From a virus (Duplodnaviria; Caudoviricetes), in IMG/VR virus record IMGVR_UViG_3300013121_000037, positions 48,345 to 112,344 of that record: a stretch of DNA of 64,000 nt. One strand, given 5' to 3'. The first letter of the stretch is position 1, and every line of letters begins with the position of its first letter. Positions 2,821-44,268 of this stretch are shown here, in pieces. A model generated the notes under the pieces. It was not told the DNA's origin. It searched no databases and worked only from the letters and a program-made list of their open reading frames with translations. The position numbers and the translations under genes were made by a program.

Positions 2821-4524
2821 CTAGCGACGATGCAAGCCCCAACTGCGCCGGTCCTGTTGCAGTGGCCGATAGGAGGATTGCTCGCTGCTCCGCTGCGGTG
2901 GTTTATCCTCGGCATGGGGTGTCATGTTCCGCCGCGGCGTATCCACCCCTGAAGGCACTCCCATGCTAAATCCTTCCGCGTAGGCCAAGTTCAGCGCGTC
3001 CATATCATCGGGACTGCGGCCAATCTTGTCCTTGGTGTCCCGCTTGGGTTCCACCACCCGTCGCCCCTGACTGTCCAGCCAGTATTCCGGAGCCAGTGCC
3101 TGCTGCTTCAGTTTCTGCCGCAGCAATGGGTCCAGACGTACCAGCGACAATTCACCCCGCTTCGCTCTTTCAGCAACCGTAAACCATAATTCATCGCGTC
3201 GCCGTGGATAATCACTCGGTTTGTGCGGACTGGAGCCAGCATTGATCGGGATAACCCGGTAACCGGCCTCACGCAGGCCATCCACCACGCCACCGCCAAC
3301 ACCATCATCATCCACCTTGATCGGCACCTGTTTGGAAATTACCGTTTTCTGACACCACTGCTGACTGGCCTTTTCTGCCCATTCCGTGGCCAGTTGTTTT
3401 AACCGGCCAATCGTGTGACTGGTATCCCGCTTGTTGAAGGACTCGTGTAGCAAACTGGTGCCACCCACCCGAACATGGATCGCCGTCCAGTCATCACCGA
3501 ACCGGGCCACATCACAACCAATCTCGGGAACAGCATCCGCTGGCATGGGTAACACGTTCAATTCCACCGCCCCCCAGAGATTATCAGACCAGATTCCATA
3601 GGTTCCCGCAGAGGGCCAGCGCCCCAGACCGCGGGCCTCAAAGATCGGTCCGGGTCTGTACCAGCGCCCGGGCTTGCCAGTGATTGCGCTGGGTGGCCAC
3701 TCAAAATCCGTGGCGGTGACTTGCTCAGGCGAGAGCGGTTCGCACCAGTCGGCTATCCAGACCTCCACCTGATCTAGCGTCACCGCCGCCGGAATCGGTG
3801 GCTCGCGGCCCTGCACCTGAGCAATGATGTTGGGATGCTCGAGCGCCGACACCTCAAACCGGTGCCAGGCCGCTGTGCTGCTGGTGTCCTCCAGATACGC
3901 CCGACTGGTCGTATCGGTGGGATTGCAAATAGCGAGCCAGAACATGAAGGGCCGCGGTTTCCACATGGTAGCCGTGGTCGTCCAGTAGGTCGCATCCACA
4001 CCGCACGCCTCATCGAATACCACCAGCATGCGCTCCGGATGCCGCCCCTGAAAACTCTCCCCTTTGGCTGCCGTGTACCCCTTGGCATAATGCTCCTGTG
4101 AGGAGGACATTTCCGGCGCCTTGGGCAGCAGGCCACCAAGTCCCACCCGCTCCCGCTGACTGCGCACCTGTGCCCAGAGCAGATCCACCACATCACGCTT
4201 GATCGGTGCCGTGGTGATGGCCAACCCCGGATCGAAGGAGTCGTAAAACCAGTTGACCAGCACAGCGGCGAGATGGGTTTTGCCTACCGAGTGGGCCGAT
4301 TTCACCAGCGTGCGATAGGGCGGGCGCAGCAGCGAACCCGCTATTTCCCGCTGCCGCTCCCACAGGTCGATTTCCAGGATGTTTCTGGCATAGGCAACCG
4401 GGTCAGTCGGGTAGGCATTGACCGGCAGACCCCGGTAATTGGTCACCTGGGGTTGGCCTCGGTTCTCCCGCAGGAGCAGTAGTTTGTCCACCTCCTGCAT
4501 CTTGCGCTGCAATATGTCTGCCAT
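2821..4524 (-). CDS. terL: terminase large subunit
   Basis: Walker A SAHSVGKT, Walker B VVFDEA, ICNP motif, nuclease motifs IGCDVARFGDD and SPDDMDAL. Confidence 0.9.
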   Translation of the reverse strand: MADILQRKMQEVDKLLLLRENRGQPQVTNYRGLPVNAYPTDPVAYARNILEIDLWERQREIAGSLLRPPYRTLVKSAHSVGKTHLAAVLVNWFYDSFDPGLAITTAPIKRDVVDLLWAQVRSQRERVGLGGLLPKAPEMSSSQEHYAKGYTAAKGESFQGRHPERMLVVFDEACGVDATYWTTTATMWKPRPFMFWLAICNPTDTTSRAYLEDTSSTAAWHRFEVSALEHPNIIAQVQGREPPIPAAVTLDQVEVWIADWCEPLSPEQVTATDFEWPPSAITGKPGRWYRPGPIFEARGLGRWPSAGTYGIWSDNLWGAVELNVLPMPADAVPEIGCDVARFGDDWTAIHVRVGGTSLLHESFNKRDTSHTIGRLKQLATEWAEKASQQWCQKTVISKQVPIKVDDDGVGGGVVDGLREAGYRVIPINAGSSPHKPSDYPRRRDELWFTVAERAKRGELSLVRLDPLLRQKLKQQALAPEYWLDSQGRRVVEPKRDTKDKIGRSPDDMDALNLAYAEGFSMGVPSGVDTPRRNMTPHAEDKPPQRSSEQSSYRPLQQDRRSWGLHRR

Positions 4525-4903
4525 GTTCCGGTGTCTTCTCGCTCGCCTTCAGGCGGCGCTCCAGTTCATCCACCCGTGCCATCAGATGCAGAACTTCCGT
4601 GGTCTTGATCCCCTGGTCCAGGATGGCCTTTGCTGCCACATTGGCCACACTGGGAAACTCGGAATCCAGGTTGTTATCCAGGGTCCGCACCGCCTTGCTC
4701 ATCCGCGCCGCCAGTTGTCCGGCGGCCCGGTTGACCAAGTTATCCCGCTGCCGCACCACCTCCTTGCGAAAGTCTTCTTCCAGCAGGCGCTTGTGTACAG
4801 TGCGCGCTGATACCCCCACCTTCTCGGCTGCCTTCTTGACGGTCAACCCCGAGGCCAGCAACAAGGCCAACTGCTGGTTTACCTGTCGGCGTGGTTTAGC
4901 CAT
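4403..4903 (-). CDS. HTH protein, probable terminase small subunit
   Basis: N-terminal HTH (TVKKAAEKVGVSARTVHKRL); directly upstream of terL. Confidence 0.6.
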   Translation of the reverse strand: MAKPRRQVNQQLALLLASGLTVKKAAEKVGVSARTVHKRLLEEDFRKEVVRQRDNLVNRAAGQLAARMSKAVRTLDNNLDSEFPSVANVAAKAILDQGIKTTEVLHLMARVDELERRLKASEKTPEHGRHIAAQDAGGGQTTAPAGEPRPTPGDQLPGSAGQCLPD

Positions 4904-18375: not shown

Positions 18376-18432
18376 TTCCTCAATTTCTTCCTCAATTTCT
18401 TCCTCAATTTCTTCCTCAATTTCTTCCTCAAT
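18376..18432 (-). repeat. 12-bp tandem repeat (ATTGAGGAAGAA) x4 plus one partial unit
   Basis: TTCTTCCTCAAT at 18385, 18397, 18409 and 18421, plus a partial unit at 18376. Confidence 0.95.
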
Positions 18433-31175: not shown

Positions 31176-32141
31176 TCAGGTGCGGATGGTTCGTGCCGCA
31201 TCCTCGGTTTTCTTCGCGTTCTCCTCGCTGGCCCAGACAAACTTGCCAATGGTTTCCAGCGCCAGTTGTACCGTTTTCGTGTCCCAGTCCTTGACTGGAC
31301 GTTTTTCGTTGCAACGGTCCTGGGCCAGCGTCGTGATAAGGCGAATCAGTTCTCCCGCCTTGGCCAGCGGCACAGGCCGATTCTTGGTCGGCGTGGCCAG
31401 ATACTGGTCATACCAGGGCAAGAATTCCGCGAAGGTGGCTCCAGAATGGGGCCGCAGTGGCGAGCCTTCCTGGGTGATGGCAGTCTCCACCTCTCCATAG
31501 CGGTCGGCAGGAATTTCCAGCAACCGCTGCACGCCAAAGACGCGAGTCAGCGCTGCCATCGTTACCCCGTTGGCCAACATCAGTTTCCACAACTCCATCG
31601 CCTGATCCGCATTGATAACTTTGGGCGCTGGCGGTTCTGCTGCTGGACTGGGTTGGTGATTGCCAGTGTTACCACTCTGAGCGGGCAACGCCCATGCGGG
31701 CAGTTTCGGTGTGCTGGTAAACCGCTTCTTCTGCGGGTCATAGTCCACCCACTGGTGCGGCAAGCGGTACAGGTAGCGTCCCAGACCAAACTTGATGGCA
31801 ACCCGTTTGAGTGAGTCGGAAAAAGCTGCCTTGAGCCGGTCCCCCTCGTCGGGTTGTTCGCTGGGGGAACCCACATCCTGCTTGGTGATCCAGACACCGT
31901 TAATGCAAATGGACAACCGGCAAACCACACTACCTTCCGGCAATGGTTTGTACCGATCACACCACCCCTCCACACCCAGCACATCGTCCAGGCGGTCCTC
32001 TATCACGCGGGCGTCCACATACGCGACGGCCAAAGCCCGGTTGCCGTTGGTGGCCTGCGGTTTCCATTTGATCTCGCTGGGGTCAAATGGTGCCGCCAAT
32101 GCTTCCTGAATCGCACGCGCCGACAATGGTTGCTCACTCAT
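31176..32141 (-). CDS. Rad52/Rad22-family single-strand annealing protein
   Basis: LAAPF...YVDAR...RLDDVLG...W; KAAFSDSLKRVAIKFGLGRYLY. Confidence 0.88.
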   Translation of the reverse strand: MSEQPLSARAIQEALAAPFDPSEIKWKPQATNGNRALAVAYVDARVIEDRLDDVLGVEGWCDRYKPLPEGSVVCRLSICINGVWITKQDVGSPSEQPDEGDRLKAAFSDSLKRVAIKFGLGRYLYRLPHQWVDYDPQKKRFTSTPKLPAWALPAQSGNTGNHQPSPAAEPPAPKVINADQAMELWKLMLANGVTMAALTRVFGVQRLLEIPADRYGEVETAITQEGSPLRPHSGATFAEFLPWYDQYLATPTKNRPVPLAKAGELIRLITTLAQDRCNEKRPVKDWDTKTVQLALETIGKFVWASEENAKKTEDAARTIRT

Positions 32142-32366
32142 GTGTACCTCACCCTGTTTAGCAAACCAGTCACTGCGCAAAAGTAGACTGTCGAGTTTTG
32201 CGCACCTGACCCTGTTCCAGTTGCAGACCGTGGAACAAACCGCGTTTGCAACATTCGTTCCAGACAGCGTCATAATCCGGGCGCACCCGTGGATTACGCT
32301 TCACTTCAATTGCCATCTCTTCCAGATGCTCGAATAGTTGCTCGTTATCGAGTATTTGCAAATCCA

Positions 32367-32762: not shown

Positions 32763-33115
32763 CAGCGCTGCTCCAGTTCTGCTGCCACCGCATCCCGTAA
32801 CTTTGGCACGGCCACCACCCGCTCGGCGTAATCCCAGAAGTCCAGAAAACATCGCAGGTCCGGGTGCTCATCCAGGTAGGCAGCGAACAACCGTTCGCCC
32901 TCGGCCACGGACCCCTCCAGACCACCGTTGAGGCAATAGGCCACCGGGCAGCAATGCGTGGCCAAGTGGCCCCAGTACGCCTTGAATGGCGGTGGTGATA
33001 CTGTGGCACCCTGCAAAATGTGTTCGGAGTCGTTGTCCAGTTCACGCAGCAAACTCTGGAGCACTTGGGTGCTGGTCTGCTGCATCACCTGCTGCCAGGA
33101 GTTTTTCCAGGTCAT
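32762..33115 (-). CDS. hypothetical protein
   Basis: Translationally coupled on both sides. Confidence 0.55.
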   Translation of the reverse strand: MTWKNSWQQVMQQTSTQVLQSLLRELDNDSEHILQGATVSPPPFKAYWGHLATHCCPVAYCLNGGLEGSVAEGERLFAAYLDEHPDLRCFLDFWDYAERVVAVPKLRDAVAAELEQR

Positions 33116-33285
33116 TGCTTGTCCCCCAGCAACTCCTGCCGCAGGATCACCACCTCGGGCGGCGCCGTGACACCCAACCGCACCTTGTCCCGGTAAATGT
33201 CCACCACCTTGATTTCCACCAACTTGCCATCGGATAACTGGATGACAATTCCCTCACCACCCAGCTTGCGTGAAAGTACCAGCAT
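33112..33285 (-). CDS. csrA: CsrA/RsmA family translational regulator (57 aa; absent from the ORF track)
   Basis: Hand translation MLVLSRKLGGEGIVIQLSDGKLVEIKVVDIYRDKVRLGVTAPPEVVILRQELLGDKQ; GGAGG RBS. Confidence 0.88.
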   Translation of the reverse strand: MLVLSRKLGGEGIVIQLSDGKLVEIKVVDIYRDKVRLGVTAPPEVVILRQELLGDKQ

Positions 33286-34036
33286 GTAAAAACCTCCCTG
33301 TATGGGCGACGAATTAACAATTCTGGCTCACCGGGACTTGCACCCAGCGATACACTGCCTGATCTGGTGAAATGACAAAAAGCCCAGACTGGCAGCACAC
33401 CAGAGTTTTTTCACAATTCCCACAATTCCCCTGTGTGAAAGATGAGGCGGGAACTGGCTTCCCATTCAGCACCAACACCACGGCACCACAATGTAGTTCC
33501 CGCCTCATGCGCTCGCGTTGACTCAGGTCACCGGCTGCGGATTGGTCCGCAGTTCCCAGGAGATATTCGCCAGGTGCGTCTTGGTACCCGACAGGCAAAT
33601 CATGATATTTTCCAACTCACGCCGAATGGTGCTGGCGTACTCGTAGGTAACGCTATCCGCAGTCTTCACGCTGGTGATGGAGTGAAACGCCTGCAGGGCG
33701 GCACTGTTGATCTTCTCCACCTCGACGCGAATCCCCTCCAGGTCCGCGTGCAACCGGTCACCTCGTTCGTCCTTGCTCATGGCATGGTTTCCTCGCAGGA
33801 GTTTCCCACTCTGCACCATATGCTGGTCCCGCTTCAATCTGCCGACTGCTGCTGACACAGGACTTCGATCTCGGCCAGTGAATCGTCAACCGCCGTCCAG
33901 TTACGTTCACAGAGCGCCCAGCGGGCACGCTCCACCAGTTTCCTGATCTGGGTTAGTACCTCGGGGCGCACTGCGGAACCTGCCGCCAGTGGCGGTTGTT
34001 GCTCATTGGTCATGTTGGTTATCTCTTTTTCCCGGT

Positions 34037-34071
34037 ACTGGGCAAAACTCGACTGTCTACTTTTGCGCAGT
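34037..34071. repeat. 35-bp palindrome at the downstream boundary of the RAMP module
   Basis: ACTGGGCAAAA CTCGAC T GTCTAC TTTTGCGCAGT. Confidence 0.95.
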
Positions 34072-34082
34072 GGTAGAAAATA

Positions 34083-34222
34083 AACCCTGCCCTGCCGTGC
34101 CCAGCCGCGCCCAACCCAGCGATGCCGAACCTCGCCCGACCTCGCCTTGCTACGCCCGCCCAGCTTTGCCGAGCCAGGCCTCACCCTGCCGAGCCAGGCC
34201 TCACCTAGCCCAACCCGACCGT
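34083..34222 (-). repeat. GGY-NN pentamer array 2 (about 27 units, 2 segments); putative guide-like ncRNA
   Basis: Minus strand GGT-CG GGT-TG GGC-TA GGT-GA GGC-CT GGC-TC GGC-AG..., with one 4-nt GGCG phase break. Confidence 0.9.
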
Positions 34223-34232
34223 GACACGCTAA

Positions 34233-34745
34233 TTAAGAACTCTTTTCTTCCAACTGATCCACGCGACTGGACAGGTTATCCAGAATGCGAGTGATTCCCG
34301 CTTGCTGGCGTGACAATCGCCGGGTCACCTCATACAGTTGGTTGTTGATTGTGGTCTGTGCGACATGGATAACACGCTCCTGTTCTGTCATCTCGTCCAG
34401 GCGTGCATTCTCCATCGTTTCCAGCGCCCATTTCATCTGCCGGTTGCCGCGCCGAGTCCTACTGTCAGCCAGTTCGCTGTGCTCGTTGGCTCTGGCCATC
34501 TTGTACCCGACATTGCGGATGTTGCGCAGCACGCGCTTGTGCTCACGTAACAAGCGGTGATTGGCGAGGGCAACCGATTGCTGCACCTCACGCTTGCTGT
34601 AACAGTGGTCGGTATTCTTCGACAACGCCACTGACAACTCATCGTAGGTGAACACCGTTCCCGGCACCGCTTCCTTCACCAGATCAATCAGCACGGTCGT
34701 GTTGCTCTGACCAGTATCGCGACCGATTTTGAATGTTGTTGCCAT
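34233..34745 (-). CDS. accessory protein of the RAMP/pentamer module, possible winged helix plus coiled coil
   Basis: Lies between the two arrays; FTYDEL...LRNIRNVGYK. Confidence 0.65.
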   Translation of the reverse strand: MATTFKIGRDTGQSNTTVLIDLVKEAVPGTVFTYDELSVALSKNTDHCYSKREVQQSVALANHRLLREHKRVLRNIRNVGYKMARANEHSELADSRTRRGNRQMKWALETMENARLDEMTEQERVIHVAQTTINNQLYEVTRRLSRQQAGITRILDNLSSRVDQLEEKSS

Positions 34746-34766
34746 AATCCACATCCTTTCCTGTTG

Positions 34767-34801
34767 AAAACCAGTGAGTAGAGCGTTGCTCTACTCACTG
34801 G
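34767..34801 (-). terminator. 14-bp perfect hairpin plus T-tract closing pentamer array 1
   Basis: CCAGTGAGTAGAGC-AAC-GCTCTACTCACTGG-TTTT on the minus strand. Confidence 0.7.
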
Positions 34802-34819
34802 CGTCTAAACATGCAGACT

Positions 34820-35120
34820 TTGCCTAGCCTTGCCCCGCCCTGCCTCGCCCGGCCGTGCAGCGCCGAACTCTGCCGTGCCCGGTCGTGCCTGCCCTGCCAA
34901 GTCCCGCCGTGCCCGACCTAGCACTGCCCCGCTTTACCCCGCCGAGCCTGCCTCGCCCTGCCTCGCCCTGCCGAACCCGGCCTTGCCTGCCCTGCCGCGC
35001 CACACCGGGGCTGGCCGGGCCTCGCCCGGCAGCGCCTATCCTGGCCCAGTCGTGCCTGCCCTGCTGCGCCGCGCCGCGCCTAGCATCGCCAAGCCCTGCC
35101 GAACCGGACCTAACTACGCC
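34820..35120 (-). repeat. GGY-NN pentamer array 1 (about 57 units, 5 segments); putative guide-like ncRNA
   Basis: Strict 5-nt period: near-invariant GGC/GGT plus a variable dinucleotide; segments split by 4-nt GGCA; starts at the RAMP stop codon. Confidence 0.92.
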
Positions 35121-35803
35121 TGCTGTTCCATTTGCTCAAAAAACTCTCTTACATCCGCGATGGAATTGCCGATGGTGGCGTCACTGTCTCTGGTCTTTCT
35201 GACGTGGCCACGGAAAGCACCGTAACCGTTGACGCGGTTGTCGCCGATCCTCTCGGTCTGTCCGGCCAATTCGACGATTTTCACCAGTTCATCGAAATCA
35301 AGTCCAGCGTCTGGGATGAATACCGCTGGAACCACCAATGCCCACGGAAAGAACTGCGGTCGAACACGCATCACCCGCTTGCCACGGATGCCAACTGACA
35401 GGCGCGAAGCAAATGCTGGATTGGCCATCAACCGCGCGATTTCGTCGTCCAGATTATTCACCTTGTCGCTTCCGTCGTAGATGAGAGCAACGTCCTGCTT
35501 GGTCATCAACAACGCTCGCTCAACTTGCTTGCCGAGTTTGTTGATTTTGCCAGTGTTTATCAAGCACTTGCGAACCTTGCTGCACGGTTGGCTAACAACA
35601 ATGCCATTGCCGTTGACAGATGCCGTGTAAATGCCACCCAACCACTCCAACCGTTCGATCTGCTTCAGGTCGTCATCGGTCTTCTTTTTCTTCGAGGTGA
35701 ACAACTTGATCTGCCGATTCACCTCATATTCAGGGTCTACCATTCGCGGGTTGTGGCAGAGCAACGGTGACTTCCCCAACAAAACAAACTCGATGTTGAC
35801 CAT
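35114..35803 (-). CDS. stand-alone RAMP / Cas7-like RNA-binding protein
   Basis: N-terminal strand plus SPLL(C)H; PCSKVRKCL resembling the RAMP PGSxhKGxhR motif; C-terminal G-rich loop IGDNRVNGYGAF. Confidence 0.75.
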   Translation of the reverse strand: MVNIEFVLLGKSPLLCHNPRMVDPEYEVNRQIKLFTSKKKKTDDDLKQIERLEWLGGIYTASVNGNGIVVSQPCSKVRKCLINTGKINKLGKQVERALLMTKQDVALIYDGSDKVNNLDDEIARLMANPAFASRLSVGIRGKRVMRVRPQFFPWALVVPAVFIPDAGLDFDELVKIVELAGQTERIGDNRVNGYGAFRGHVRKTRDSDATIGNSIADVREFFEQMEQQA

Positions 35804-35833
35804 GCTTAATTCCTCGTATTGTGTTGGTGGTTC

Positions 35834-35868
35834 ACTGGTCAAAACTCGACTGTCTACTTTTGCGCAGT
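35834..35868. repeat. 35-bp palindrome at the upstream boundary of the RAMP module
   Basis: ACTGGTCAAAA CTCGAC T GTCTAC TTTTGCGCAGT. Confidence 0.95.
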
Positions 35869-36148
35869 GGGTAAAAAAAACGGCAGTGATGGGTGTGCAA
35901 CAACAAGTCGCACGCTAACAGGTGGTGCAACGAACCTCAGAATCACCACCACTGCCGTTGTTCTCAACGTGGCCTGCTGTTGTGCCCCACATGCCACTGC
36001 TGGCAATGTGGACACTGGTAGCAGTGCATGTGCCGGATACCGTCACTGTTGCGGTTGATAAGTCCCAGCAAATGTCGCTGGGCGCTCGCCTGATTGGCAT
36101 GGGCGATCTTGCCGGTGCGGGTACACTTCGGCAGGGTGCGCAGGGTCA

Positions 36149-36796
36149 TCATGACTTCACCTCGCTCTTGCGGCCCCGCTTGCCACGCCCTTCCTCCAGC
36201 AACTGCCGCAGGATGTTGACCAGTTGCTCTGGCAGTGGCGGTTCACTGACCGCCACCGCGGGCGGTTCTGGCTGGGGTGGTGTCACCTGCGCCTGGATGA
36301 GTGCTTCCATCTTCTGGTGCTTATCGCTGGCATCCGCCAGAGCTTCATCCAGAAAGTTGGTGTAAAAGCACCCGGGCGAACTGGTACGCCAGATATTGGC
36401 ATACCAGGGCACTCCAGAGGCGCAAGGCAGCGGTTCCTGCAACTCGGGCACCTGAAAGCGAGCGTTGACCCGGCCATAGATTTGCAGGGCCTGCCAGGGT
36501 TTCGTGTCATCGGCCTGCTGCGCCATGGTGACGTAAATGGGCGCACACTCTGGAAATTGCAGGGCAATCTCCGTGCGCTGGGAATACGCTTCAAACGTCT
36601 GGCTTCGGGGCAACGACTCCAGAAACTTCTCCAGTGGGCCAAGCAAGGTCTGTAAGCCCGCCAGCACACGCTCCCAGCGGCGATTGAGCACGCCTTCGCG
36701 GCTGGCAATCTCCGCCTGCTTCTTCGCTGCTTCGGCCTTGCGCACCTCGTTGAGTTTGATTCGTCCCGAGGCAATTGCTTCCTGTAACGCAGTCAT
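36149..36796 (-). CDS. hypothetical protein
   Basis: GGAGG RBS; 215-aa ORF. Confidence 0.55.
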   Translation of the reverse strand: MTALQEAIASGRIKLNEVRKAEAAKKQAEIASREGVLNRRWERVLAGLQTLLGPLEKFLESLPRSQTFEAYSQRTEIALQFPECAPIYVTMAQQADDTKPWQALQIYGRVNARFQVPELQEPLPCASGVPWYANIWRTSSPGCFYTNFLDEALADASDKHQKMEALIQAQVTPPQPEPPAVAVSEPPLPEQLVNILRQLLEEGRGKRGRKSEVKS

Positions 36797-37518
36797 GTCT
36801 TTTCCTCCGTTCTCCGTTAGTGGTTCAGGTTCCCTGCTCCAGTTGCCGCACCTCAGCGCTGGGCAGACCGTAGGTGATGCCACGCTTCGCTTCCAGTTCG
36901 AGCGCGGCATCCACAATCTTCTGGGCGCGTTCCGCCACCCCTTCCGCGTTGATGGCGTAGGTGGCCAGTCCACCAAGCACATGGGCCAGCAGCAGCAGTC
37001 GCGGTGGCGGATACTCCTGGTGCGGTTCAGACAACCGCTGCACACAACCGTTGTTGTCCAGGACAGGTTGACTCATGGGTTCCTCCTCGTGTTGCTGGTC
37101 ACTGCGCAAAAGTAAACAGTCGCATTTTGCGCAGCGACCTACTCCTGAAGCAGCGCCAGTGCCTGCCGAAACACCGACAGAAACTCACTGCGCTCGCAGA
37201 ACAGCAGACCGCTGGCCAGAAACTGGCACTGCACCACATCGCCTGCCGGTGACTCCAGTACCATCCCGGCCAGCACCGGCACGCCATTGCACTCACCATG
37301 CAACCAGTTCCAGGTCCACAATTCGCCGCCAATGGACAGCACCCCAGAGCAGTCGTTGCTGTCCTCTGGCTGTACGAACCAGTGAACCGCCTCAGTGCGC
37401 ACCGGTAGCGTGGACAGCGACATCGTTGCTCCTTGTGCTGCTGGTAAAGCAGCGACTGGTGTTGAACGGTCAAGTTTCCAGGTCGTTCCCGGCAGGCATG
37501 GCTTGACTTCAAGTCTCA

Positions 37519-44048: not shown

Positions 44049-44268
44049 TACCGTGACAAATTACCGTGACAGTCAGAGGTGTTTTTCCCTAAGTCAGTAT
44101 CCCCGACAGGATTCGAACCTGTAACCTTCGGCTCCGGAGGCCGACGCCACCACAGCGCAAACTCACTGTCAAATAACAACTTGTGGCAAAAACACCACTG
44201 CACACCTACCATCGTTTTATAGCGGTTTTCGCCAGTTGGCAAGCGATACCGTGACAGATACCGTGACA
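44049..44268. other. attP-like site: core is the 3' half of tRNA-Arg(CCG) (44097-44147, minus strand), flanked by paired arm-type repeats
   Basis: GCGTCGGCCT-CCG-GAGCCGAAGGTTACAGGTTCGAATCCTGTCGGGGATAC with no 5' acceptor strand or D arm; TACCGTGACA at 44049, 44062, 44247 and 44259. Confidence 0.85.

What the first reader, a model, noticed from the sequence alone, without database searches (positions are those of the whole stretch)
34820..35120. Pentamer array 1 is punctuated into guide-sized segments by a 4-nt GGCA phase break
Hand parsing of the minus strand gives five segments of about 12, 13, 7, 11 and 14 pentamers, each separated by GGCA (GGCAGGC junction). NN strings: GT-TA-CC-TC-AG-TT-GA-TA-GC-GC-GC-AG / AC-TG-CA-TA-GC-CG-GA-CC-CA-CC-GT-GC-AG / AA-CG-TC-AG-GA-AG-GA / TC-GG-AA-GG-AG-TA-CG-AC-GG-TT-AG / AC-CG-AC-AG-TC-GC-AC-CG-GA-AG-GG-AA-TA-AA. 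Variation is concentrated in two of five positions and the strings are non-redundant, unlike a slippage microsatellite. Three of the four breaks are preceded by NN=AG. Inference: the junction is a processing or register signal analogous to a CRISPR repeat, giving several guides per transcript.
Basis: partly seen in the sequence, partly recalled or inferred. Interest (0 to 1): 0.8.

Follow-up and report, generated by a model that had tools for sequence, protein, structure and literature searches.

The report
Staggered VIPR guide-RNA array in phage
The five-base repeat with one-base register breaks is real: it is a back-to-back ("staggered") guide-RNA array of a phage VIPR system, a CRISPR-related DNA-silencing device first described in 2026 preprints, so it is a good new example of a known kind rather than a new system.

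Summary
On the minus strand, 35120..34820 is a run of GGY-NN pentamers. Four 4-nt GGCA units shift the register by -1 each time, giving segments of 12, 13, 7, 11 and 14 pentamers.

It is the guide array of a VIPR system. The gene that runs into the array matches the solved SUSP1 Vipr protein (E 6e-26 with a profile). A vap1-like gene and a second array with one break follow.

The break is a conserved delimiter, not noise:
- In 20 related loci, 92 of 101 breaks are -1, and 83 of those 92 units are GGCA. Random slippage would give about 40%.
- 69% of internal segments are 9-15 units long, against 22% under a geometric null.
- Whole segments are duplicated or shared between phages.
- 21 of 25 arrays end in GGCAG.

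This matches the "staggered vrRNA arrays" of bioRxiv 10.64898/2026.04.26.720920 (fig. S18), which that paper did not confirm by sRNA-seq.

RNA ends could not be tested, and no target was found. This scan has already noted the same layout in at least 8 other genomes.

Verdict: new member of a known kind, modest interest.

The parts
35114..35803 (-). vipr gene: 229 aa from the ATG at 35803 (the open frame from TTG reaches 35842). The stop codon is at 35116..35114 and lies inside the first array units.
   Evidence: phmmer hit to PDB 36pp_D 'SUSP1 Vipr protein', E 2.8e-13, residues 6-198 vs 6-186. With the clade profile the E-value is 6.1e-26. phrog_4652, no Pfam family. RNA-contacting residues named in 10.64898/2026.04.26.720927 align as H17=H17, R138=R148, D177=D188, R179=R190; W178 is N189 here.
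35057..35120 (-). Array 1, guide segment 1: 12 pentamers plus the terminal GGCA (64 nt). It starts inside the last codons of vipr.
34988..35056 (-). Array 1, guide segment 2: 13 pentamers plus GGCA (69 nt).
34949..34987 (-). Array 1, guide segment 3: 7 pentamers plus GGCA (39 nt). It is short and has an internal AG-GA duplication.
34890..34948 (-). Array 1, guide segment 4: 11 pentamers plus GGCA (59 nt).
34820..34889 (-). Array 1, guide segment 5: 14 pentamers (70 nt). It has no terminal GGCAG unit and runs into the terminator region.
34767..34802 (-). Stem-loop of 15 pairs (the closing pair is G-U) followed by TTTT. It is the likely intrinsic terminator that closes the vipr + array 1 transcript.
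   Evidence: RNA fold -29.6 kcal/mol for the 61-nt stretch, z -5.46 against 200 shuffles. The simple terminator scan missed it because the T run has only 4 T.
34233..34754 (-). vap1-like accessory gene, 173 aa.
   Evidence: phrog_5926. Weak but consistent BLASTP matches to the gene directly after vipr in Pseudomonas phage LESphi2 (5e-7), Escherichia phage HY02 (1e-5) and Gordonia phage MakoManhole (2e-7; annotated there as DNA binding protein).
34157..34220 (-). Array 2, guide segment 1: 12 pentamers plus a 4-nt unit GGCG (64 nt). It starts 12 nt after the vap stop codon.
34082..34156 (-). Array 2, guide segment 2: 15 pentamers, ending GGCAG GGCAG GGTTT and then a T-rich stretch.

Best explanation
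The region is the main guide-RNA array of a phage VIPR (Viral Interference Programmable Repeat) system of the 'staggered' type.

Transcript (inferred). vipr and array 1 are transcribed together up to the hairpin at about 34802..34767.

How the guides work (established for the SUSP1 system, inferred here). One Vipr protomer binds each GGY-NN pentamer, hides the GGY and presents the NN dinucleotides. These pair with double-stranded DNA by the one-base-skip rule (NN x NN x ...) and silence transcription of rival mobile elements.

What the break does. Each guide ends in a constant unit GGCAG, and its last G is also the first G of the next guide. Read in pentamers, that is a 4-nt GGCA unit and a -1 register shift. 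A Vipr filament needs a strict 5-nt spacing, so the shift stops one filament and starts the next. The transcript therefore yields five independent guides of 7-14 dinucleotides from array 1 and two from array 2. The junction is probably also where the RNA is cut or trimmed.

Shown here: Vipr homology, the repeat grammar, conservation of the delimiter, guide-sized spacing, and modular behaviour of the segments. Inferred: filament termination at the junction, RNA cleavage there, and the targets.
For: 1. Vipr membership: PDB 36pp_D 'SUSP1 Vipr protein', E 2.8e-13 with the single sequence and 6.1e-26 with the profile. The G-binding residues are conserved.
2. GGY/NN grammar: entropy 0.4-0.7 bits at GGY against 1.8-2.0 bits at NN. 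These are the only two such arrays in 112 kb.
3. Locus order vipr - array - vap1-like - array, as in the closest relative (81% identical Vipr). That relative has the same architecture but entirely different NN content.
4. In 20 non-redundant related loci, 92 of 101 breaks are -1 and 83 of 92 break units are GGCA. The share of AG among xG dinucleotides predicts 40% if the breaks were random one-G deletions.
5. Internal segment lengths have median 10 units. 69% fall in 9-15, against 22% for a geometric null. The published vrRNA range is 9-16 repeats.
6. Segments act as modules: whole-segment duplicates in L010 and L015, and one whole segment shared by L014 and L026 between otherwise different neighbours.
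7. 21 of 25 arrays end with GGCAG within their last three units or directly after them, even where no guide follows.
8. The delimiter type follows the Vipr tree: every -1/GGCA array falls in one clade with 100/99 support. Sister clades use GGCTTC|CTC (+1), short tails or long tails.
9. [quoted passage not shown] S18 legend).
Against: - No RNA data exist for this phage, so neither transcription nor ends at the junctions are shown.
- The paper says that only the ribozyme-interspersed and single-vrRNA architectures were confirmed by sRNA-seq, so the staggered type rests on sequence analysis there too.
- No convincing DNA target was found for any of the seven guides.
- 13 of 57 scaffolds in array 1 depart from GGY.
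- Segment 3 has only 7 dinucleotides, below the published 9-16.
- Relatives also contain 2-3-unit 'segments' that cannot be guides.
- Array 1 lacks the terminal GGCAG.
- The stacking residue W178 of SUSP1 Vipr is Asn throughout this clade, so details of RNA binding may differ.
Confidence: 0.72

Rival explanations
1. The junction is a register or filament-stop signal only. The array stays one long RNA that carries several separate Vipr filaments, and no cleavage occurs at GGCA. A single RNP would then hold several guides at once.
For: A 4-nt spacing is enough in principle to interrupt a filament that binds one protomer per 5 nt, with two adjacent protomers sharing each GGY. There is no recognisable nuclease site, ribozyme or tail between segments. 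No processing data exist for staggered arrays.
Against: The fig. S18 legend speaks of 'individual processed vrRNAs'. In every VIPR type tested by sRNA-seq the mature species are single guides of about 100 nt or less. Arrays of up to about 100 units (L017) would make very long RNPs.
Confidence: 0.18
2. The breaks are neutral mutational noise: one-G deletions in the GGG run formed by NN=xG plus the next GGC, inside what is functionally one long repeat tract.
For: GGCAG GGC differs from GGCA GGC by a single G in a homopolymer run, so the change is mutationally easy (sequence).
Against: - 83 of 92 break units are GGCA, against 40% expected.
- Breaks are almost never +1 in this clade.
- Spacing is far narrower than geometric.
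- Segments duplicate and exchange as whole units.
- Arrays end in GGCAG.
Confidence: 0.04
3. The array acts as DNA: an iteron or centromere-like series of binding sites for the neighbouring winged-helix-like protein. Alternatively it is a TRAP-like regulatory RNA wrapped by a ring protein, with no guide function.
For: Arrays of short repeats flanking a DNA-binding-like gene resemble partition or replication iterons. TRAP binds (G/U)AG-NN repeats with the same 5-nt period (my own knowledge, not tested here).
Against: The neighbouring gene is a clear Vipr homolog, and Vipr family members have been solved bound to GGY/NN RNA. The NN are hypervariable between close relatives while the scaffold is fixed, as expected of guides and not of protein-binding iterons. 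The repeat is strictly strand-specific and follows the gene orientation in all loci.
Confidence: 0.03

Closest known systems
VIPR systems with 'staggered' vrRNA arrays (bioRxiv 10.64898/2026.04.26.720920, main text and fig. S18 legend; also PMC13142463)
   Same: A Vipr RAMP-like protein next to GGY/NN pentamer arrays. Adjacent guides abut with a one-nucleotide overlap and no tail between them. Viral genome. A DNA-binding-type accessory gene.
   Different: Nothing essential differs. This report adds numbers for one clade: near-invariance of GGCA, the 9-15-unit spacing, a locus-specific unit before the break, GGCAG at array ends, and sister-clade delimiters. I could not see the figure itself, only its legend, so I cannot say how many of these details are already shown there.
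VIPR type II systems of Escherichia phage SUSP1 and the Pseudomonas fulva prophage (same preprint; structures in 10.64898/2026.04.26.720927; PDB 36pp)
   Same: Homologous Vipr (about 30% identity, E 6e-26 by profile). Homologous vap1-like gene. vrRNA repeat tracts of 9-16 GGY-NN units. Arrays on both sides of the protein genes.
   Different: There, each vrRNA carries an invariable 3' tail of about 40 nt (a pseudoknot in the SUSP1 clade). I saw 40-60-nt tails in HY02 and LESphi2. Here the only punctuation is the shared G of GGCAG/GGC. W178 of the G-loop is Asn in this clade.
CRISPR arrays processed by Cas6-type RAMPs
   Same: Several guides per transcript, separated by a constant delimiter. A RAMP-fold protein binds the guide. 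Spacer-like content is hypervariable between close relatives.
   Different: The delimiter is 4-5 nt with no hairpin, against a 23-50-nt repeat. The guide is non-contiguous (two of every five bases). No adaptation genes are known for VIPR. The target is double-stranded DNA, read with a one-base skip, and the outcome is silencing.

Membership tests
VIPR system | Vipr protein: a minimal RAMP (RRM core, G-loop, thumb) homologous to characterised Vipr | tested here: met
   PDB 36pp_D 'SUSP1 Vipr protein': E 2.8e-13 and E 6.1e-26 with the clade profile, near full length. H17, R138, D177 and R179 equivalents are conserved.
VIPR system | Tandem GGY/NN (YNNGG) pentamer repeats next to vipr, with conserved GGY and hypervariable NN | tested here: met
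   Entropy 0.4-0.7 bits against 1.8-2.0 bits. Only two such arrays in 112 kb, both flanking the vipr-vap genes. NN content is wholly different in the 81%-identical relative.
VIPR system | vipr-accessory (vap) gene in the locus | tested here: met
   The 173-aa ORF is weakly similar to the gene after vipr in three cultured-phage VIPR loci (E 5e-7, 1e-5, 2e-7) and matches phrog_5926.
VIPR system | vrRNAs are expressed and bound by Vipr | not testable with these tools
   No sequencing run was listed for this stretch.
VIPR system | NN dinucleotides match natural DNA targets by the one-base-skip rule | tested here: inconclusive
   Local scan of 120 guides against the genome and loci: skip 1 did no better than skips 0, 2 or 4. 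Collection scans with cores from six of the seven guide segments of this window and from two guide segments of relatives gave nothing, or hits whose flanks matched only at the chance rate. The exact-match requirement makes these scans insensitive.
Staggered vrRNA array (VIPR sub-architecture) | Adjacent guides abut with a 1-nt overlap and no tail or ribozyme between them | tested here: met
   Four GGCA|GGC junctions in array 1 and one GGCG|GGC junction in array 2. No Rfam ribozyme in the window.
Staggered vrRNA array (VIPR sub-architecture) | Mature vrRNA ends coincide with the junctions | not testable with these tools
   No RNA data. The paper states that sRNA-seq confirmed the other two alternative architectures.
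CRISPR array | Direct repeats of about 23-50 nt alternating with contiguous spacers | tested here: not met
   The tandem-repeat and direct parses show only a 5-nt period with 4-nt breaks.

The most novel reading that the evidence does not exclude
The punctuation is read by Vipr itself and has co-evolved with it. The minimal GGCAG/G overlap would then be a self-sufficient stop-and-start (and perhaps cleavage) signal for filament assembly, the smallest guide delimiter known. The series long tail -> short tail -> GGCTTCCTC -> GGCA would record stepwise loss of the handle. The locus-specific unit before GGCA would be part of that signal.
Probability: 0.25. Interest if true: 0.5.

Novelty: new member of a known kind. 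Interest (0 to 1): 0.27.

Why it matters
VIPR is a newly described RNA-guided DNA-silencing system, proposed to be older than CRISPR. How its arrays are divided into guides matters for annotating them and for engineering multiplexed guides.

This locus and its relatives give quantitative support, from uncultivated phages, for the staggered layout that the discoverers reported without RNA evidence. Three rules follow: every guide is 5n+4 nt long, ends in GGCAG, and shares that G with the next guide. These rules can be used directly to call guides in metagenomic phages and to design tail-less multi-guide arrays.

The finding does not reveal a new kind of system.

Tried and rejected
**Closest DNA relatives.** Megablast of 33000-37000 against cultured phages found no match. 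A single-protein scan of viral contigs confirmed no relative; the profile scan worked.

**Target search by the one-base-skip rule.**
- Local scan of 120 guides against the 112-kb genome and 30 loci: best matches about 70-83%, no better than with skips 0, 2 or 4.
- Viral contigs, array 1 segment 5 (20 specified bases): 0 hits.
- Viral contigs, array 2 segment 2 (16 specified bases): 12 hits, with flanks matching at chance.
- Viral contigs, array 1 segment 1 and array 2 segment 1 (18 specified bases each): 0 hits.
- Viral contigs, the segment shared by L014 and L026, and the duplicated L010 guide: 0 hits.
- Prokaryote genomes, array 1 segment 2: one hit in a Gemmatimonadales MAG, 22 of 26 positions. 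About one hit was expected by chance, and the flanks matched at chance.
- Metagenomes, segment 4: 0 hits.
- Metagenomes, segment 5 core: 58 hits. All have flanks at the chance rate (mean 2.4 of 10 positions). They lie in unrelated host proteins that share a common helix motif PLSRVA[DE]LV, including proteins that look like TonB-dependent receptors, an RND-type transporter and an AraC-type regulator, named from the sequence around the motif only. I treat these as composition-driven chance matches, not targets.

**RNA evidence.** No RNA holder was listed, and none of any kind was listed, for 34050-35850.

**Other checks.**
- The Rfam gathering scan found nothing in the locus.
- ARAGORN found no tRNA in the window or in eight related loci.
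- Folding the whole array as RNA is uninformative for a protein-coated G-rich repeat.
- The supplement held for the paper only repeats the methods and legends, so I could not assign the VIPR type (I-VII) from the authors' tables.
- Before finding the literature I considered a TRAP-like wrapped RNA, rut sites on the opposite strand and DNA iterons. I dropped these once Vipr homology was established.

Full report
**1. What is in the sequence.**

Read on the minus strand, the stretch 35120..34820 is a run of pentamers of the form GGY-NN. It begins inside the last codons of an upstream gene.

GGC occurs in a single phase. That phase then steps by -1 four times (0, 4, 3, 2, 1), each time at a 4-nt unit GGCA followed by GGC. 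A dynamic-programming parser that allows any unit length from 3 to 9 recovers the same picture. The segments hold 12, 13, 7, 11 and 14 full pentamers, and the first four are each closed by GGCA. Their lengths are 64, 69, 39, 59 and 70 nt.

Entropy at the three scaffold positions is 0.73, 0.42 and 0.71 bits. At the two NN positions it is 1.96 and 1.84 bits.

A scan of the whole 112-kb virus contig finds only two such arrays, both on the minus strand. The second lies at 34220..34082 and has 12 + 15 pentamers with one -1 break, here GGCG.

**2. What surrounds it.**

The window is part of an IMG/VR virus record of 112,344 bases. On the minus strand the order is:
- a 229-aa gene (35803..35114);
- array 1;
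- a 15-pair hairpin followed by TTTT (about 34802..34767; -29.6 kcal/mol, z -5.5);
- a 173-aa gene (34754..34233);
- array 2.

Neither protein has a Pfam family. They fall in phrog_4652 and phrog_5926, both of unknown function.

That led me to three 2026 preprints.

**3. Identification as a VIPR system.**

According to 10.64898/2026.04.26.720920, VIPR systems consist of three parts:
- a minimal RAMP protein, Vipr;
- an accessory gene, vap;
- vrRNAs made of 9-16 YNNGG repeats.

The hypervariable NN pair with double-stranded DNA by a one-base-skip rule and repress rival mobile elements.

The 229-aa protein matches the solved SUSP1 Vipr protein (PDB 36pp_D) over nearly its whole length. The E-value is 2.8e-13 for the single sequence and 6.1e-26 for a profile of 30 clade members.

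The residues that the cryo-EM paper names as holding the two guanines align with conserved residues here: H17, R138, D177 and R179 correspond to H17, R148, D188 and R190. W178 is an invariant Asn in this clade.

The 173-aa protein is weakly but consistently similar to the gene that follows vipr in three cultured-phage loci. These are Pseudomonas phage LESphi2, Escherichia phage HY02 (a Felixounavirus, the group in which most Escherichia and Salmonella phage hits fell) and Gordonia phage MakoManhole. It is therefore a vap1-like gene.

**4. Is the GGCA break a signal or noise?**

I collected relatives of the Vipr protein: 619 at E<=1e-5. I fetched 30 viral loci by profile and the two closest relatives from assemblies, and parsed all arrays with the same parser.

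- **Break type.** In the 20 non-redundant loci whose Vipr is 51-81% identical to this one, 92 of 101 breaks are -1, and 83 of those 92 units are GGCA.
- **Slippage control.** GGCAG GGC and GGCA GGC differ only by one G in a G run, so slippage could create such breaks. Random slippage would give GGCA in only about 40% of cases, judging from the frequencies of AG, GG, TG and CG dinucleotides in the same arrays.
- **Spacing.** Internal segment lengths have median 10 units. 69% lie in 9-15, against 22% for a geometric distribution with the same break rate. This fits the published 9-16 repeats per vrRNA.
- **Segments as modules.** L010 carries two guide families repeated as complete 49-nt segments. 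L015 has two identical adjacent segments. L014 and L026 share one complete segment between otherwise unrelated neighbours.
- **Closest relative.** The 81%-identical relative has the same gene-array-gene-array layout, with four segments in place of five and no NN content in common.
- **Array ends.** In 21 of 25 arrays GGCAG is among the last three units, or follows them directly, even though no guide comes after. This favours the authors' reading: each guide ends in a constant GGCAG whose last G doubles as the first G of the next guide ('1 nt overlapping positions', fig. S18 legend).
- **Unit before the break.** It is more uniform within a locus than between loci: 67 identical pairs against 26.8 +/- 4.7 in shuffles, and 0 of 5000 shuffles reach 67. 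Whole-segment duplications inflate this figure somewhat.

**5. Comparison across Vipr clades.**

A maximum-likelihood tree of 33 Vipr sequences puts every -1/GGCA array in one clade with 100/99 support. The other four rows in that clade are loci cut off by contig ends, with no array in the held DNA.
- A sister clade (L027, L029; 39-42% identity) uses a different, equally constant delimiter, GGCTTC|CTC. This shifts the register by +1.
- L031 and L032 (34% identity) have tails of roughly 15-20 nt.
- The cultured-phage systems have 40-60-nt tails.

Each delimiter type arose once on this tree. That is descriptive and not a statistical test of co-evolution. It does suggest that the punctuation is matched to the protein rather than to a general host RNase.

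**6. Mechanism.**

In the solved SUSP1 complex, one Vipr protomer binds one repeat. Two adjacent protomers share each GGY, and the NN are presented for pairing. A 4-nt spacing cannot be accommodated in such a lattice.

The most economical reading is therefore that the filament ends at GGCAG and a new one starts on the shared G. Each 5n+4 segment would then act as a separate guide.

Whether the RNA is also cut there is not known. The fig. S18 legend speaks of processed vrRNAs, but the text says that sRNA-seq confirmed only the ribozyme-interspersed and single-vrRNA architectures. I rate 'delimits separate guides' at about 0.7. Within that, cleavage or trimming at the junction is more likely than an uncut multi-filament RNA.

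**7. What I could not show.**

No sequencing run was listed for the locus.

Target searches by the one-base-skip rule found nothing convincing:
- The local scan showed no excess for skip 1.
- Exact-pattern scans of viral, prokaryote and metagenome collections returned nothing, or returned hits whose flanking dinucleotides matched at the chance rate.
- The 58 metagenome hits to the core of segment 5 fall in unrelated host proteins that share a common helix motif. I treat them as chance.

These scans need an exact match over 8-11 dinucleotides. They are therefore insensitive, and the blank says little.

**8. Verdict.**

The system and this layout are already in the literature, and this scan has already reported the same layout in at least eight other genomes. 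This is therefore a new member of a known kind. Its value lies in the quantitative grammar, in the comparison of delimiters across clades, and as a candidate for testing how tail-less arrays are resolved.

Noticed in passing
L010:279-325 (+); the same element follows the upstream arrays of L014 (from about 449) and L026 (from about 2916): Directly after the last unit (GGCAG GGTGA) of the arrays upstream of vipr comes a tRNA-like minihelix: an acceptor-like stem plus a T arm containing GGTTCGAATCC. It gives a weak Rfam match to mascRNA-menRNA, a tRNA-like RNA released by RNase P (26.8 bits, E 0.065, below the gathering score). ARAGORN calls no tRNA. It may define the 3' end of the last guide through host tRNA-processing enzymes. 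By eye, a similar T-arm-like sequence follows the array in Gordonia phage MakoManhole (L049, around 2990-3080).
   Followed up: partly
L027:2736-2901 and 4189-4360; L029:3595-3817 and 4452-4847: A sister Vipr clade (39-42% identity) punctuates its arrays with a constant GGCTTC|CTC motif that shifts the register by +1 rather than -1. Segments are again 9-16 units long.
   Followed up: partly
L031:3593-3921; L032:3593-3840: A more distant clade (34% identity) separates its guides by short T-rich tails of roughly 15-20 nt, for example GGTTTT followed by CGTGA and TTCGG. In size these fall between the tail-less arrays and the 40-60-nt tails of the cultured-phage systems.
   Followed up: no
window 35114-35803 (-), residue N189: The G-loop tryptophan that stacks on the second guanine in SUSP1 Vipr (W178) is an invariant Asn in this clade. 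An invariant N-G-Y-G-x-F follows, so a different aromatic residue may take over the stacking.
   Followed up: no
L047:533-778 and 2099-2296: In the locus of the 69%-identical relative, the list of called genes shows a CsrA-family gene (PF02599) just upstream of the VIPR module. Further upstream is a DUF1580 gene (PF07618), a family I recall as typical of Planctomycetes, which is a hint to the host group.
   Followed up: no
window 34830-35225 (+), 34855-35202 (+), 34824-35003 (-): Open frames of 131, 115 and 59 aa run across array 1. They are by-products of the G/C-rich 5-nt repeat and should not be annotated as genes.
   Followed up: partly
window 44103-44155 (-): Rfam gives a marginal tRNA match (30.8 bits, gathering score 29, model positions 5-66 of 71), but ARAGORN finds no tRNA. 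It may be a tRNA fragment or an attachment-site remnant.
   Followed up: no
window 18376-18432: A perfect 12-nt tandem repeat, TTCCTCAATTTC x 4.8 (100% matches).
   Followed up: no
window 31176-32273 (-): A Rad52/Rad22-family single-strand annealing protein (PF04098, E 2e-14) lies about 2 kb downstream of the VIPR module.
   Followed up: no
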